A stretch of DNA of 64,000 nt from Escherichia phage PNJ-9, in sequence record PQ100635.1. One strand, 5' to 3'. A model generated the notes under the pieces. The model had not been told where the DNA came from and ran no database searches. It worked only from the letters and a program-made list of their open reading frames with translations. The translations under genes and the position numbers were made by a program. Below are positions 28,748 through 30,871 of the stretch, in pieces (position 1 is the stretch's first letter; each line of letters begins with the position of its first letter).

Positions 28748-29263
28748 ATGAATATTCGTTTAGGCAGTACAATTCCTAAGGGCTACGTAATTGATGTCAC
28801 TACCTATGAAAATGATGGTGACAACTATAAAATCAAAACATTGTTTGAAGTGGAAGAGCATGAGCTCCAACAGTTTAAATATCTCTTGAAGAAATTTAAG
28901 AGCCGTCATTCTAGCACTAAAGCCGAACGTTATTGCGGTAATACACCATTCAGTGATTGTTCGCTTTTAATCTATGAATACTTGGTTGAAGGACTGTTCT
29001 CAGACCAGCTTTATCCAGAATTCATTAAAAAGGTCTTTGGTATCGAAGTTGACCTTGGTGACAAATCCGAAGAAGATGAAACACGTGTATTCGACCTATT
29101 CTTTGAGAGCGGAGATGAGATATCTCAAGGACTTATTGATATTCTTGGCTATGCTTCTGAATACTATGATTACGATTTCTTGCGTGTAGTTGAACGTGTC
29201 GAATTTGCTTATATTGAAAAAGAAATTGTTTTGCCAACCGTTAAAATGGTTGATTTGCTTTAA
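28748..29263 (+). CDS. hypothetical early protein
   Basis: 171-aa acidic ORF; no recognisable motif. Confidence 0.5.
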   Translation: MNIRLGSTIPKGYVIDVTTYENDGDNYKIKTLFEVEEHELQQFKYLLKKFKSRHSSTKAERYCGNTPFSDCSLLIYEYLVEGLFSDQLYPEFIKKVFGIEVDLGDKSEEDETRVFDLFFESGDEISQGLIDILGYASEYYDYDFLRVVERVEFAYIEKEIVLPTVKMVDLL

Positions 29264-29342
29264 GAATTATGTGTTATTATTAATTCATACCCTCTATTAC
29301 TAAAGGTGCTCTAAAGTGCCTTTCATAATAGAAAGTTATTAA

Positions 29343-29417
29343 GGCCCTGTAGCTCAATGGGAGAGCTGTCAGCTCATAACTGATAGGTAGCTGGATCGAA
29401 ACCAGCCAGGGTCACCA
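29343..29417 (+). tRNA. tRNA with CAT anticodon (Met, or lysidine-modified Ile)
   Basis: Hand-folded cloverleaf: acceptor GGCCCTG/CAGGGTC, D-arm GCTC-AATGGGA-GAGC, anticodon loop CTCATAA, T-arm GCTGG-ATCGAAA-CCAGC, 3' ACCA encoded. Confidence 0.75.
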
Positions 29418-29420
29418 ATC

Positions 29421-29497
<77 letters not shown>

Positions 29498-29515
29498 ACT
29501 TCAAGTGAGGAAAAT

Positions 29516-29860
29516 ATGAAAGGCAATATTTATTTGGTAGTTCATGATTTAACGTTTTATTTTAACGAACAGGATACAGTTATTTCCGACCGGTTGATTA
29601 ATTCGTTATATCAACACGCTGATTACGTTTATTTTCAAAATGAATTCGGACATTGGAAGTTTCTTAAAAACCGTTCCGGGTTAACTAGTTTTGAATACTT
29701 TGACCGTAAAGACCTTTTAAACGAAATTCCATTACAACATCGGTTCCAGAAACGCGAATCACTATACTATTGTCGCCATATACCAAATGCTGAATGTGTT
29801 TATGAAGCGATTAATCTATGGCGTCGGCGTCGAGAGCAAATTGATGATATGCCAAAATAA
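29516..29860 (+). CDS. hypothetical protein in the tRNA region
   Basis: 114 aa from ATG 29516 (SD GAGGA); the ORF track's upstream extension overlaps the tRNAs and is rejected. Confidence 0.4.
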   Translation: MKGNIYLVVHDLTFYFNEQDTVISDRLINSLYQHADYVYFQNEFGHWKFLKNRSGLTSFEYFDRKDLLNEIPLQHRFQKRESLYYCRHIPNAECVYEAINLWRRRREQIDDMPK

Positions 29861-29861
29861 G

Positions 29862-30171
29862 AAGCCGGGTCGCTACCGGCAAGACGTCGGACTGATGTTC
29901 CCTGAGTAAGGACTGGTCTTAATAAATCTTTACGATTTGTTAATACCCCCTTACATCACAGCAGAAACGGCGCACAGAATTATCGATTCGAGGAAATATC
30001 TTTGCCGTAAGCCGAGTAGCGTTTTTGACGGAACGTTCGGATATGGTCGAGATATGGCCTTTTAAAAATATTGAGTAGCGTCAACTGCTTAATAACCGGG
30101 TTCGAATCCCGGCGTTTCGTACAAACACTTGCCTTAGCAGGTGGGACCCCGACAAGGTTGCCGCAAGGCAT
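29862..30171 (+). ncRNA. candidate structured stable-RNA region
   Basis: About 310 nt with no credible ORF, between the tRNA pair and a strong terminator; contains a perfect tRNA-like T-arm CCGGG-TTCGAAT-CCCGG (30096-30112) and several stems; could correspond to T4 stable RNA species, but no cloverleaf could be folded. Confidence 0.3.
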
Positions 30172-30201
30172 AGCCCCTTCCGAAAGGTTGGGGCTTTTTT
30201 G
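30172..30201 (+). terminator. rho-independent terminator
   Basis: GCCCC-ttccgaaaggtt-GGGGC stem followed by TTTTTT. Confidence 0.7.
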
Positions 30202-30209
30202 TATAAATA
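30202..30209 (+). promoter_or_regulatory. T4-type late promoter (TATAAATA)
   Basis: Exact TATAAATA directly after the terminator, 36 nt upstream of the 30245 ATG. Confidence 0.6.
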
Positions 30210-30244
30210 TAGTAAACAATAAACCTACTTTCTAAGGACCATCA

Positions 30245-30871
30245 ATGTATACTTTTAATGAATTTTTAGCAGAAACGGAAGTAATCACCGAAGCCGGTGT
30301 ACGTATGACAAAAGAGAAATGGCAAGCTGCTTACGATGCTATTTCTGGTACAAAAACTAGTACAGAGTTTTTCAAAAACGTTCAAGCCATGTACGGTATC
30401 GACACTTCCAGCCAAAAAGAATATTACAGAGCTTCTAAAGCATTCAAAGATATTGTTAGTGGTGGTGTTTCTGCTAAATCGGGTTCGCCTAAAGTAAAAC
30501 CTGCTCCTACCATTCCTAAACCTGCGACCCCTAAAGCAGTAGCAAAACCTGAGCCTAAGCCGGAAGTAAAAGCAACTCCTAAAGCTCCTGCTCTTAAGTT
30601 TGATACTTCTAGCCTGGAAAAAAAATATAAACAACTATCTTCGCTTGTTCGTGATATTGAATCCGATACATCTTCACTCGTTCGTGAATTCAATATTCTT
30701 CGTAATGGCCAACATATCAACAACCTTGATACCCCAGACCTTTATCGTCTTTATTTGACTATCGAAGGTTTGAAGTATACTCAACCACTTCACGATGCGA
30801 TTAAAGAAAAACTTCGTCAGGCAGGTCGTTTGGCTGCTGACGCTGCTCAGTATGCAAAAACTCGTAAGTAA
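30245..30871 (+). CDS. late-expressed protein with a diverged capsid-targeting-like N-terminus and Pro/Lys-rich linker
   Basis: 208-aa ORF beginning MYTFNEFLAE (compare MKTYQEFIAE); low-complexity PKVKPAPTIPKPATPKAVAKPEPKPEVKATPKAP segment; bracketed by a late promoter and a hairpin terminator. Confidence 0.6.
   Translation: MYTFNEFLAETEVITEAGVRMTKEKWQAAYDAISGTKTSTEFFKNVQAMYGIDTSSQKEYYRASKAFKDIVSGGVSAKSGSPKVKPAPTIPKPATPKAVAKPEPKPEVKATPKAPALKFDTSSLEKKYKQLSSLVRDIESDTSSLVREFNILRNGQHINNLDTPDLYRLYLTIEGLKYTQPLHDAIKEKLRQAGRLAADAAQYAKTRK

What the first reader, a model, noticed from the sequence alone, without database searches (positions are those of the whole stretch)
29862..30201. About 310 nt of non-coding, highly structured sequence after the tRNA pair, with a perfect T-arm but no cloverleaf
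Between the 29516 ORF and the terminator there is no credible ORF on either strand. The segment contains GCCGG-gtcgcta-CCGGC, AAGAC...GTCTT and a canonical T-arm CCGGG-TTCGAAT-CCCGG (30096-30112) flanked by pairable CGGAACG (30029-30035) and CGTTTCG (30113-30119), but I could not fold an anticodon arm. T4 is known to encode stable RNAs of unknown function co-processed with tRNAs; this may be their counterpart or a degenerate tRNA. Only two tRNAs are present here, with anticodons CAU and UCU, versus eight in T4.
Basis: partly seen in the sequence, partly recalled or inferred. Interest (0 to 1): 0.5.

Follow-up and report, generated by a model that had tools for sequence, protein, structure and literature searches.

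The report
Phage T4-type stable RNAs rnaD and rnaC
This stretch is the phage's copy of two small stable RNAs (species 2 and species 1) long known from the tRNA operon of phage T4; one of them is a tRNA-shaped molecule with no anticodon arm, and its function is still unknown.

Summary
Window 29857-30200 is about 93% identical to the region annotated in T4, T2L and RB68 as rnaD (species 2 RNA) plus rnaC (species 1 RNA), followed by the operon terminator. The window itself is a Mosigvirus, identical here to phage PNJ-6. No Rfam family matches it.

The "perfect T-arm" belongs to rnaC (29984-30123). Thirty-five distinct homologues from about ten T4-like genera show that rnaC does form a cloverleaf-like four-way junction. 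It has a 7-bp acceptor stem with a conserved tandem U.U (29984-29990 with 30113-30119), a long arm, a short arm and the T-arm. Twenty-eight of 46 tested pairs show compensatory changes.

Three points go beyond what the database annotations say:
- The two arm loops (UUGACG and CGUCAA) are exact complements and change together once (UUGGCG/CGCCAA), which suggests a kissing loop.
- In other genera rnaC occupies a slot inside tRNA arrays.
- Two lineages encode U-CCA after the acceptor stem.

I read rnaC as a tRNA-derived mimic that is cut out by the tRNA-processing enzymes. What it does afterwards is inference only. The element is already known, so interest is modest.

The parts
29343..29497 (+). 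tRNA-Met(CAU) at 29343-29417 and tRNA-Arg(UCU) at 29421-29497. These are the upstream genes of the same operon.
   Evidence: ARAGORN. Rfam tRNA model scores 59.4 and 71.1 bits.
29516..29860 (+). ORF homologous to T2L trna.2 (phrog_3355, function unknown). Its stop codon at 29858-29860 overlaps the 5' end of rnaD.
   Evidence: ORF list, PHROG match E = 1.9e-50. T2L and RB68 have the same layout.
29857..29976 (+). rnaD (species 2 RNA) homologue. It has a 5' hairpin at 29864-29880, a long-range closing stem (about 29885-29891 with about 29970-29976) and a variable apical hairpin (about 29903-29958).
   Evidence: Coordinates were transferred from the T4, T2L and RB68 annotations through alignment A1. 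The RNAalifold consensus of 16 distinct sequences has 9 of 32 pairs with compensatory change. The single-sequence fold gives z = -4.1.
29977..29983 (+). Spacer AGAAUUA-U between rnaD and rnaC. The inferred RNase P cut lies between 29983 (U, position -1) and 29984.
   Evidence: The T2L annotation starts rnaC at the position equivalent to 29984, and T4 and RB68 start it at 29983. The cleavage site is inferred from the acceptor-stem register.
29984..30123 (+). rnaC (species 1 RNA) homologue, a tRNA-like four-way junction of about 140 nt.
   Evidence: Annotation transfer. Covariance model R1 scores 173.1 bits and gives the only hit in the window. The MFE of the excised RNA reproduces the comparative structure, with z = -4.2.
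29984..29990 (+). rnaC acceptor stem, 5' strand CGAUUCG. It pairs with 30113-30119 (CGUUUCG). The tandem U.U sits at 29987-29988 opposite 30115-30116.
   Evidence: The five Watson-Crick pairs are 100% paired in 35 sequences. The third pair is A-U in 13, G-C in 21 and G.U in 1. In phage PM2 the first pair becomes A-U and both U.U become U-A.
29991..30060 (+). rnaC arm 1, a long irregular hairpin. Its helices are 29991-93/30058-60, 29997-99/30052-54, 30005-15/30036-46 and 30020-24/30031-35.
   Evidence: 16 of its 19 pairs show compensatory changes. The stem is completely rewritten in the fGh-Ecl04, Kosakonia 305, Marfavirus and Melville types but still pairs.
30025..30030 (+). Loop of arm 1, UUGACG. 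It is the proposed kissing partner of 30079-30084.
   Evidence: Exact reverse complement of the arm 2 loop. The sequence is UUGACG in 29 of 35 sequences, UUGGCG in the 5 Marfavirus-type sequences and GAGACG in PM2.
30069..30094 (+). rnaC arm 2, a hairpin of 9-10 bp that ends 1 nt before the T-arm.
   Evidence: 8 of 9 pairs show compensatory changes.
30079..30084 (+). Loop of arm 2, CGUCAA. It is the proposed kissing partner of 30025-30030.
   Evidence: Becomes CGCCAA in exactly the five sequences whose arm 1 loop is UUGGCG. The loop-loop helix is 99.5% paired over 35 sequences. The chance of a 6-nt complement among three random loops is about 0.003.
30096..30112 (+). rnaC T-arm: a 5-bp stem with the 7-nt loop UUCGAAU, directly followed by the acceptor 3' strand as in tRNA.
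   Evidence: The middle pair is G-C in 15 sequences and U-A in 18. The loop keeps the tRNA pattern UUCRA in most lineages, but it is UGCAUGC or UGCAUC in four sequences.
30113..30123 (+). rnaC acceptor 3' strand CGUUUCG (30113-30119) plus the tail U-ACA. The Marfavirus and PM2 homologues have U-CCA here.
   Evidence: Alignments A3 and A5. The annotated 3' ends correspond to 30121 (T4, RB68) or 30123 (T2L).
30124..30172 (+). Conserved 3' trailer with two small hairpins, about 30126-30143 and 30160-30169 (GCC-GCAA-GGC). It occurs only in the lineages where rnaC is last in the operon.
   Evidence: Nearly invariant among the window, T4, T2L, RB68 and VR7. The fold z-score is only -2.4. It is absent where a tRNA follows rnaC.
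30173..30200 (+). Intrinsic terminator of the tRNA/stable-RNA operon: GCCCCUUCC-GAAA-GGUUGGGGC followed by U6.
   Evidence: Read from the sequence and the fold, and conserved in T4, T2L and RB68. The simple terminator scan missed it because of two U.U mismatches in the stem.

Best explanation
The segment is the 3' end of the phage's tRNA operon. It encodes the orthologues of T4 rnaD (species 2 RNA, about 29857-29976) and rnaC (species 1 RNA, about 29984-30123), then a conserved trailer and the operon terminator (30173-30200).

Shown here:
- rnaC is a tRNA-derived structural mimic. A 7-bp acceptor stem with a conserved tandem U.U, together with a canonical 5-bp T-arm, forms the 12-bp tRNA 'top half'.
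- The D and anticodon arms are replaced by a long hairpin (arm 1) and a short hairpin (arm 2).
- The 6-nt loops of those two hairpins, UUGACG and CGUCAA, are complementary.
- rnaD is a separate rod- or Y-shaped RNA found only in the T4, RB69 and VR7 lineages.

Inferred:
- The two loops form a kissing complex that locks the body of the RNA (my estimate about 0.65).
- rnaC is released from the polycistronic transcript the way a tRNA is. RNase P would cut at 29983/29984, and the 3' end would come from endonuclease cleavage or cleavage of the next tRNA, followed by exonuclease trimming to a 2-4 nt tail (about 0.8). This fits the fact that in other genera rnaC occupies a tRNA slot.
- rnaC cannot decode, and it offers no conserved single-stranded seed for base pairing. 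It therefore most likely acts as a stable protein-binding tRNA mimic, for example a decoy or competitor for a host or phage factor that recognises the tRNA acceptor/T-arm end. That would make it an accessory function tied to particular hosts. This last step is speculation (about 0.25-0.3).
For: Identity:
- The 340-nt query covers 99-100% of the homologous region in 679 phage records. Among them are T4 (93.2% identity), RB68 (94.7%) and T2L (89.4%), where the features under the match are annotated rnaC and rnaD.

Structure of rnaC:
- RNAalifold on 30 distinct sequences gives 25 of 39 pairs with compensatory changes.
- Pair counting on the MAFFT alignment gives 98.9% of cells paired and 26 compensatory pairs, reached by 0 of 500 shuffles. 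Slid controls give 35-48% paired and 3-5 compensatory pairs.
- On 35 sequences the count is 28 compensatory pairs.
- The single-sequence MFE of 29984-30123 gives the same fold.

Acceptor register:
- The third pair switches between A-U and G-C in step.
- PM2 turns both U.U into U-A and C-G into A-U.

Kissing loop:
- The pairing is retained in 34 of 35 sequences, with one double change (A-U to G-C) in the Marfavirus clade.
- The chance expectation is about 0.003.
- The collection patterns did not constrain the loops, and the covariance model recovered no homologue that my loop filter had dropped.

tRNA-like handling:
- rnaC lies between tRNA-Trp and tRNA-Gly in the Karamvirus phages Pet-CM3-4, fGh-Ecl04 and PG7, in Gelderlandvirus, and (on the tRNA-Trp side) in phage Ursula. 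It lies between tRNA-Ile and tRNA-Trp in Winklervirus, and between tRNA-Ser and tRNA-Trp in PM2.
- The base at -1 is usually U.
- U-CCA follows the acceptor stem in Marfavirus and PM2.
- Model R1 gives weak hits to genuine tRNAs.

Expression and unknown function:
- Northern blots show RNAC in T4 infection, and the authors class RNAC and RNAD as late RNAs of unknown function (PMC9697503).
- 'Biological roles are unknown' (PMC3014915).
- The tRNA region is non-essential (PMC2330249).
- A convergent SNP in rnaD arose when a T4-like phage adapted to a semi-permissive host (PMC12685909).
Against: - No transcript data exist for this phage. The RNA ends are transferred from annotations that disagree by 1-2 nt.
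- The kissing loop rests on loop invariance plus a single independent covariation event. In PM2 only 4 of the 6 pairs survive. Geometry was not modelled, and intermolecular pairing fits the data equally well.
- The T-loop consensus is lost in four homologues (UGCAUGC or UGCAUC) and in PM2 (UUCGGUC), so strict tRNA-elbow mimicry is not universal.
- In this window the tail is U-ACA, not U-CCA.
- In the 340-nt precursor the MFE pairs the acceptor 3' strand with GAAACG (29964-29969) in rnaD rather than with the 5' end of rnaC.
- The RNase P and RNase E processing of the T4 species 2-species 1 precursor is recalled from 1970s-80s literature that I could not retrieve here.
- Nothing computed here bears directly on the decoy function.
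Confidence: 0.85

Rival explanations
1. rnaC is a decaying tRNA pseudogene: a former tRNA gene that lost its anticodon arm and drifts without function.
For: It has a canonical T-arm and a 7-bp acceptor stem and sits among tRNA genes. Rfam gives a weak tRNA-Sec match of 16.6 bits at 30028-30120. ARAGORN and GenBank call a 95-nt 'tRNA-Met' inside the PG7 homologue.
Against: The non-tRNA arms are preserved by compensatory substitutions in 24 of 28 pairs across about ten genera. Loop and junction nucleotides are invariant while the stems are rewritten. That pattern indicates purifying selection on this specific fold. The RNA accumulates stably in T4 (PMC9697503).
Confidence: 0.03
2. The region encodes a small protein, for example the 79-aa ORF on the - strand at 29980-30219 or the 54-aa ORF on the + strand at 30071-30235. 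Several GenBank records annotate such 'hypothetical proteins' here.
For: The ORFs exist in this window. 'Hypothetical protein' features lie under the match in many records.
Against: No reading frame stays open across rnaC in T4, T2L, VR7, Melville, PM2 or PG7. Homologues differ by 1-2 nt indels. Substitutions are paired, as expected for RNA, not in a codon pattern. The strand bias in folding energy favours a + strand RNA.
Confidence: 0.02
3. rnaC and rnaD have no function in trans. They are cis-acting structured spacers that guide or protect processing of the tRNA operon transcript, acting as an RNase P/RNase E entry site or a 3' exonuclease barrier, and accumulate as stable by-products.
For: They are co-transcribed with tRNAs and lie next to the terminator in T-even phages. 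An alternative helix links the 3' part of rnaD to the acceptor strand of rnaC in the precursor fold. The region is non-essential (PMC2330249).
Against: A simple spacer would not need invariant loops, a conserved tandem U.U or a conserved 3' tail across genera. In other genera rnaC sits mid-array, where tRNAs are otherwise only 2-10 nt apart and need no spacer.
Confidence: 0.15
4. rnaC and/or rnaD are base-pairing regulatory small RNAs that target phage or host mRNAs.
For: They are called 'small regulatory RNAs' in PMC9697503, though without evidence. rnaD is cut from the 3' end of an mRNA, like 3'-UTR-derived sRNAs. An adaptive SNP arose in rnaD (PMC12685909).
Against: In rnaC the conserved unpaired stretches are the two loops, which complement each other, the T-loop and an A-rich linker. 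There is no obvious free seed. No targets were sought here, and none is known (PMC3014915).
Confidence: 0.1
5. The complementarity between UUGACG and CGUCAA is not an intramolecular kissing loop. It mediates dimer or multimer formation between rnaC molecules, or it reflects a DNA-level inverted repeat bound by a protein.
For: Covariation preserves complementarity whichever molecule supplies the partner, and also preserves a DNA inverted repeat. Arm 1 (about 25 bp) is much longer than arm 2 (about 10 bp), so intramolecular contact needs a sharp bend.
Against: The repeat halves lie about 50 bp apart, inside a transcribed stable RNA, and exactly fill hairpin loops in every lineage even though the stems differ. 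A DNA site gives no reason for that placement. Arm 1 has conserved internal loops and bulges that could act as hinges.
Confidence: 0.12

Closest known systems
Bacteriophage T4 species 1 RNA (rnaC) and species 2 RNA (rnaD)
   Same: Same sequence family (89-95% identity to T4, T2L and RB68), same order (rnaD then rnaC), same strand as the tRNAs and same terminator. The annotated lengths also match: 118-120 nt and 139-140 nt.
   Different: Here and in T2L and RB68, rnaD follows an ORF (a trna.2 homologue), whereas in T4 it directly follows tRNA-Arg. This phage has 2 tRNAs against 8 in T4. The window has a private A at 29884 that weakens one pair of the rnaD stem.
Canonical tRNA (Rfam RF00005)
   Same: A 7-bp acceptor stem is joined without a spacer to a 5-bp T-stem with a UUCGAAU loop. 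There is a single-stranded 3' tail (U-CCA in two lineages). The gene sits in tRNA arrays with U at position -1.
   Different: There is no D-arm and no anticodon arm or anticodon. The element is about 140 nt long, has a tandem U.U inside the acceptor stem, and has an ACA tail here. Neither ARAGORN nor the Rfam tRNA model detects it.
tRNA-like domain of tmRNA (SsrA)
   Same: A stable RNA whose 5' and 3' ends form an acceptor/T-arm mimic, while the rest of the molecule is unrelated to tRNA. It is also processed by RNase P.
   Different: There is no tag-peptide ORF, none of the four tmRNA pseudoknots, and no G3.U70 except in PM2. The RNA is much smaller. ARAGORN and Rfam give no tmRNA match.
tRNA-like non-coding RNAs excised by tRNA enzymes (e.g. 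mascRNA from MALAT1) and bacterial YrlA/Y RNA tRNA-like modules
   Same: The principle is the same: a tRNA-shaped module borrows tRNA-processing or tRNA-binding proteins without decoding.
   Different: The sequence and architecture are unrelated. In the region searched, the only YrlA match (16.6 bits, E = 2.7) lies over the genuine tRNA genes at 29384-29448, not over this element.
Loop-loop (kissing) complexes such as ColE1 RNA I/RNA II or the HIV-1 dimerisation initiation site
   Same: Six Watson-Crick pairs form between two hairpin loops.
   Different: Here both loops are in one molecule next to a tRNA-like junction. The interaction is inferred from comparison only.

Membership tests
T-even rnaC (species 1 RNA) | Sequence homology to the annotated T4, T2 and RB68 rnaC genes | tested here: met
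   BLAST places the annotated rnaC/rnaD features under the match. In the four-way alignment the rnaC part differs from T4 at only a few positions. Model R1 scores 173.1 bits, level with the T4 copy at 173.9 bits.
T-even rnaC (species 1 RNA) | Location in the tRNA operon on the same strand, downstream of rnaD and upstream of the operon terminator | tested here: met
   The order tRNA-Met, tRNA-Arg, ORF, rnaD, rnaC, terminator matches T2L and RB68.
T-even rnaC (species 1 RNA) | Accumulates as a discrete stable RNA of about 140 nt in infected cells | not testable with these tools
   Shown for T4 by northern blot (PMC9697503). There are no data for this phage.
T-even rnaD (species 2 RNA) | Sequence homology to annotated rnaD, with its conserved 5' hairpin and 3' segment | tested here: met
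   Alignments A1 and A4. The 5' 55 nt and 3' 35 nt are nearly invariant and the apical hairpin is variable but paired.
tRNA (RF00005) | Cloverleaf with a D-arm and an anticodon arm carrying a 7-nt anticodon loop | tested here: not met
   ARAGORN makes no call here. The tRNA model gives no hit here even at E <= 10; the only match is tRNA-Sec at 16.6 bits against a gathering score of 47. The comparative structure has two unrelated arms.
tRNA (RF00005) | A 7-bp acceptor stem stacked on a 5-bp T-stem with a T-loop (U54-U55-C56-R57-A58) | tested here: met
   Present in the window and most homologues. The loop motif is lost in 5 of 35 sequences.
tRNA (RF00005) | 3' N73-CCA end, either encoded or added | tested here: inconclusive
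   The window encodes U-ACA. Marfavirus and PM2 encode U-CCA. Post-transcriptional addition cannot be tested here.
tmRNA | tRNA-like domain plus an internal tag-peptide reading frame and pseudoknots | tested here: not met
   No ARAGORN tmRNA call and no Rfam tmRNA match. No conserved ORF.
Any curated Rfam family | Score at or above the family's gathering threshold | tested here: not met
   Only the two tRNAs pass in the whole window. All matches within 29862-30201 have E >= 0.8.

The most novel reading that the evidence does not exclude
rnaC defines a conserved family of phage tRNA mimics that has no Rfam family. Its body is locked by an intramolecular 6-bp kissing loop. Its acceptor end is sequence-specific: C1-G72, a tandem U.U and a U73-(A/C)CA tail. 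This end would be the working surface. The RNA would act as a decoy or competitive substrate for a host factor that attacks or modifies tRNA acceptor ends. Candidates include CCA-end-modifying defence toxins of the CapRel or MenT/AbiE type, and tRNA-end nucleases or transferases. That would explain why the RNA is dispensable in laboratory strains yet conserved in hundreds of T4-like phages.
Probability: 0.12. Interest if true: 0.75.

Novelty: already known. Interest (0 to 1): 0.3.

Why it matters
The element has been known since the 1970s, so finding it in another T4-like genome is routine. It mainly shows that many GenBank records, including the closest one (PNJ-6), leave it unannotated or cover it with spurious ORFs.

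The comparative model built here has some value of its own:
- It fixes the acceptor register of rnaC.
- It shows that rnaC behaves like a tRNA gene within tRNA arrays across about ten genera.
- It points to three conserved features that can be mutated directly: the kissing loops, the tandem U.U and the 3' tail.

These give concrete handles on the question of what T4's species 1 RNA does, which the reviews consulted here still describe as open (PMC3014915, PMC9697503). The alignment could also seed an Rfam family.

Tried and rejected
- **Rfam scans.** The scan at gathering thresholds and the scan at E <= 10 found no family for the segment.
It is 87% paired, has no compensatory change and is broken in 16 of 30 sequences at one position, so I rejected it.
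It is specific to this window.
- **Protein-coding reading.** No frame is conserved. The neighbouring ORFs match only PHROGs of unknown function and no Pfam family.
- **Search for more distant homologues.** I ran two viral-contig scans, one metagenome scan and one bacterial-genome scan with loop-free anchor patterns.
  - Every hit outside T4-like phages was a GC-rich chance match with no covariance-model signal.
- **A mistyped pattern** (ACGTCAAY instead of GCGTCAAC) wasted one viral scan and returned only chance hits.
- **BLAST walks** from the fGh-Ecl04, Marfavirus, PM2 and Melville copies reached the same roughly 700-800 phage records each (83 for the Marfavirus copy). All infect Enterobacterales, and no new lineage appeared.
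- **T4-like phages of Aeromonas, Vibrio and Acinetobacter** were not scanned with the model.
- **Literature searches** for the original species 1 processing papers ('p2Sp1', 'species 1 RNA') found nothing usable. The T4 genome review is not held.
Full report
**What is in the sequence**

ARAGORN and Rfam find only tRNA-Met(CAU) at 29343-29417 and tRNA-Arg(UCU) at 29421-29497 in the whole 64-kb window. After the ORF at 29516-29860 come about 340 nt without a convincing gene.

That stretch folds far better than shuffled sequence on the + strand: -127.4 kcal/mol, z = -6.0, and 0 of 100 shuffles as good. It does not do so on the - strand, where z = -1.9. A permissive Rfam scan of 29200-30400 gives nothing for this stretch. 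The best match is tRNA-Sec at 30028-30120, with 16.6 bits against a gathering score of 47 and E = 3.9.

**Identity**

The window is a T4-like phage of the genus Mosigvirus, 100% identical here to Escherichia phage PNJ-6. That record annotates nothing in the interval.

A BLAST of 29862-30201 against the phage collection finds 805 records, and 679 of them cover at least 80% of the query. Where the region is annotated at all, the features under the match are rnaD (species 2 RNA) and rnaC (species 1 RNA). This is so in T4 (93.2% identity), RB68 (94.7%) and T2L (89.4%).

Transferring those annotations through a four-way alignment gives rnaD at about 29857-29976 and rnaC at about 29983/4-30121/3. 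A conserved trailer follows, then the terminator GCCCCUUCC-GAAA-GGUUGGGGC-U6 at 30173-30200.

The gene order (tRNAs, a trna.2-like ORF, rnaD, rnaC, terminator) is that of T2L and RB68. T4 has segB and tRNA-Arg in place of the ORF (PMC2330249).

**Structure of rnaC**

I collected homologues in three ways: BLAST walks, loop-independent pattern scans of viral and metagenome contigs, and a covariance model. This gave 35 distinct sequences from Tequatrovirus, Mosigvirus, Gaprivervirus, Karamvirus, Moonvirus, Kanagawavirus, Winklervirus, Gelderlandvirus, Mosugukvirus and Marfavirus.

RNAalifold predicts a four-way junction:
- An acceptor stem, 29984-29990 with 30113-30119, containing two U.U mismatches.
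- A long irregular arm 1 at 29991-30060.
- An A-rich linker.
- Arm 2 at 30069-30094.
- One nucleotide, then the T-arm at 30096-30112, abutting the acceptor 3' strand as in tRNA.

Counting pairs on the MAFFT alignment gives 98.9% of cells paired and 26 of 44 pairs with compensatory change, reached by 0 of 500 shuffles. Partners slid by 1-3 columns give only 35-48% paired and 3-5 compensatory pairs. With 35 sequences the count is 28 compensatory pairs. The MFE of the excised window sequence reproduces the same fold, with z = -4.2.

The acceptor register is fixed by two observations:
- An A-U to G-C switch in step with the 3' strand (13 A-U, 21 G-C, 1 G.U).
- Phage PM2, where C1-G72 becomes A-U and both U.U become U-A, giving seven uninterrupted pairs.

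As an acceptor strand it shows no compensatory change and is broken in 16 of 30 sequences. It is a feasible alternative helix in T-even sequences. In phage PG7 it is perfect, and both ARAGORN and GenBank call a 95-nt 'tRNA-Met' there. It is not what evolution conserves.

**A probable kissing loop**

The loop of arm 1 (UUGACG, 30025-30030) and the loop of arm 2 (CGUCAA, 30079-30084) are exact reverse complements.
- Both loop sequences are unchanged in 29 of 35 sequences, even in lineages where the arm 1 stem is entirely rewritten.
- In the five Marfavirus-type sequences they read UUGGCG and CGCCAA, a double change from A-U to G-C that keeps all six pairs.
- PM2 keeps only GACG/CGUC.

Three random loops of these sizes would contain a 6-nt complement about 0.3% of the time. 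The collection patterns did not include the loops. The covariance model recovered no homologue that my later loop filter had removed, so the invariance is not a sampling artefact.

This is one independent covariation event plus strong conservation. I put the loop-loop pairing at about 0.65. I cannot distinguish an intramolecular kiss from dimerisation.

**rnaC behaves as a tRNA gene**

Outside the T4, RB69 and VR7 lineages there is no rnaD and no trailer. Instead rnaC occupies a slot inside the tRNA array, a few nucleotides from its neighbours:
- Between tRNA-Trp and tRNA-Gly in the Karamvirus phages Pet-CM3-4, fGh-Ecl04 and PG7 and in Gelderlandvirus. In phage Ursula it directly follows tRNA-Trp.
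- Between tRNA-Ile and tRNA-Trp in Winklervirus.
- Between tRNA-Ser and tRNA-Trp in PM2.

The acceptor stem plus T-arm make the 12-bp stack that RNase P measures, and the base at -1 is usually U. After the acceptor stem comes U-ACA in most lineages, but U-CCA in Marfavirus and PM2. The rnaC model also gives weak hits to genuine tRNAs.

From this I infer that rnaC is released by RNase P at 29983/29984, followed by 3' trimming. This agrees with my recollection of the classical T4 work, in which a dimeric species 2-species 1 precursor is cut by RNase P and RNase E. I could not retrieve those papers here.

Some features argue against strict tRNA mimicry:
- The T-loop motif is lost in four sequences and altered in PM2.
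- The tail in this window is not CCA.
- There is no D-loop partner for the T-loop.

**rnaD and the trailer**

Sixteen distinct rnaD sequences, all from T-even-like phages and VR7, share a consensus structure:
- A 5' hairpin at 29864-29880, whose closing pair switches between G-C and A-U.
- An invariant long-range stem.
- A variable apical hairpin that stays paired even where T2L has an unrelated sequence.

Nine of the 32 predicted pairs are compensatory, and the fold z-score is -4.1.

The trailer at 30124-30172 is almost invariant among T-even phages but shows too little variation to test.

**What it is not**

- No reading frame is conserved across rnaC, and homologues differ by 1-2 nt indels. 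The 'hypothetical proteins' annotated here in some records are probably spurious.
- It is not a decaying tRNA. The non-tRNA arms are the parts best supported by compensatory change.
- There is no tmRNA-like reading frame or pseudoknot set.
- There is no second copy in the window.
- I found no copy in bacterial genomes or in non-T4-like contigs among the pattern hits examined.

**Function**

The literature I could read says the roles are unknown (PMC3014915, PMC9697503).
- The RNAs accumulate late in T4 infection (PMC9697503).
- The tRNA region is dispensable in laboratory hosts (PMC2330249).
- One experimental-evolution study found the same SNP in rnaD in all lines of a T4-like phage adapting to a semi-permissive E. 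coli strain (PMC12685909).

In rnaC the conserved features are the sequence of the acceptor end, the junction and the two mutually complementary loops. There is no free seed for base pairing. My best guess is a compact, nuclease-resistant tRNA mimic that binds a protein recognising tRNA acceptor/T-arm ends, acting as a decoy or competitor whose value depends on the host. I give this about 0.25-0.3. A purely cis-acting processing role or a base-pairing role remain open.

**Verdict**

The element is already known, as T4 rnaD and rnaC. The comparative analysis adds a covariation-supported cloverleaf-like model, a candidate kissing loop, the tRNA-slot context and the U-CCA variants. None of these changes the classification. 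Interest is modest.

Noticed in passing
window 30202-30209: TATAAATA, the T4 late-promoter consensus, sits immediately after the operon terminator, 36 nt upstream of the ORF at 30245-30871 (phrog_2280, function unknown). RB68 has the same motif here and T4 does not.
   Followed up: partly
window 29516-29860: An ORF homologous to T2L trna.2 (phrog_3355, no Pfam match) separates tRNA-Arg from rnaD, and its stop codon overlaps the annotated 5' end of rnaD. rnaD would therefore be cut from the 3' end of an mRNA here, whereas in T4 it directly follows tRNA-Arg.
   Followed up: partly
L034 8491-8585 (-), L342 636-730, L343 536-630: In Enterobacter phages PG7 and SonariX, ARAGORN and the GenBank records call a 95-nt 'tRNA-Met(CAU)' lying entirely inside the rnaC homologue. 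It uses the internal CGGAACG/CGUUCCG helix and an 'anticodon' in the A-rich linker. It is probably a false tRNA call.
   Followed up: partly
L025 1122-1275, L027-L029, L080 and L161 924-1076: The Marfavirus-type and Pectobacterium PM2 homologues encode U-CCA right after the acceptor stem, where the others have U-ACA. In PM2 the acceptor stem is fully paired and has G3.U70, the alanine identity pair. This could simply be drift from G-C.
   Followed up: no
L031, L036, L037 and L024 (A3 columns 128-134): Four homologues, including the Winklervirus phage Virsaitis27, replace the T-loop UUCGAAU with UGCAUGC or UGCAUC. The stems, the tandem U.U and both kissing loops are kept, so the T-loop motif is not essential to the family.
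   Followed up: no
window 29964-29969 with 30113-30118: In the fold of the full 340-nt segment, the acceptor 3' strand of rnaC pairs with GAAACG near the 3' end of rnaD (six perfect pairs) rather than with the 5' end of rnaC (a helix interrupted by U.U). This may be a precursor-specific conformer. Both strands are invariant in T-even phages, so covariation cannot test it.
   Followed up: no
window 29884: A private T-to-A change (GACGUCGG against GUCGUCGG in all 15 other rnaD sequences) creates an A.A mismatch in the long-range stem of rnaD.
   Followed up: yes
window 30178-30179: The terminator stem has UU where T4, T2L and RB68 have GA. This gives two U.U mismatches in a 9-bp stem, and the simple terminator scan missed the site. 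VR7 shares the UU.
   Followed up: partly
GenBank records (e.g. H42-H44, H48-H50) and PNJ-6 (L341): Many T4-like genome records annotate 'hypothetical protein' CDSs across rnaC and rnaD. The closest record (PNJ-6) annotates neither the stable RNAs nor the two tRNAs.
   Followed up: partly
H91 (phage VR20), H92 (TH54), H97 (TH44): In these phages the match to the 340-nt query is split into two pieces spanning about 690 bp. This suggests an insertion or replacement of about 350 bp inside the rnaD-rnaC region.
   Followed up: no
window 30096-30112: The SegB homing endonuclease of T4 recognises an 11-bp motif that corresponds to the tRNA T-stem-loop (PMC2330249). At the DNA level the rnaC T-arm resembles such sites, so it might be a secondary SegB target in mixed infections.
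   Followed up: no
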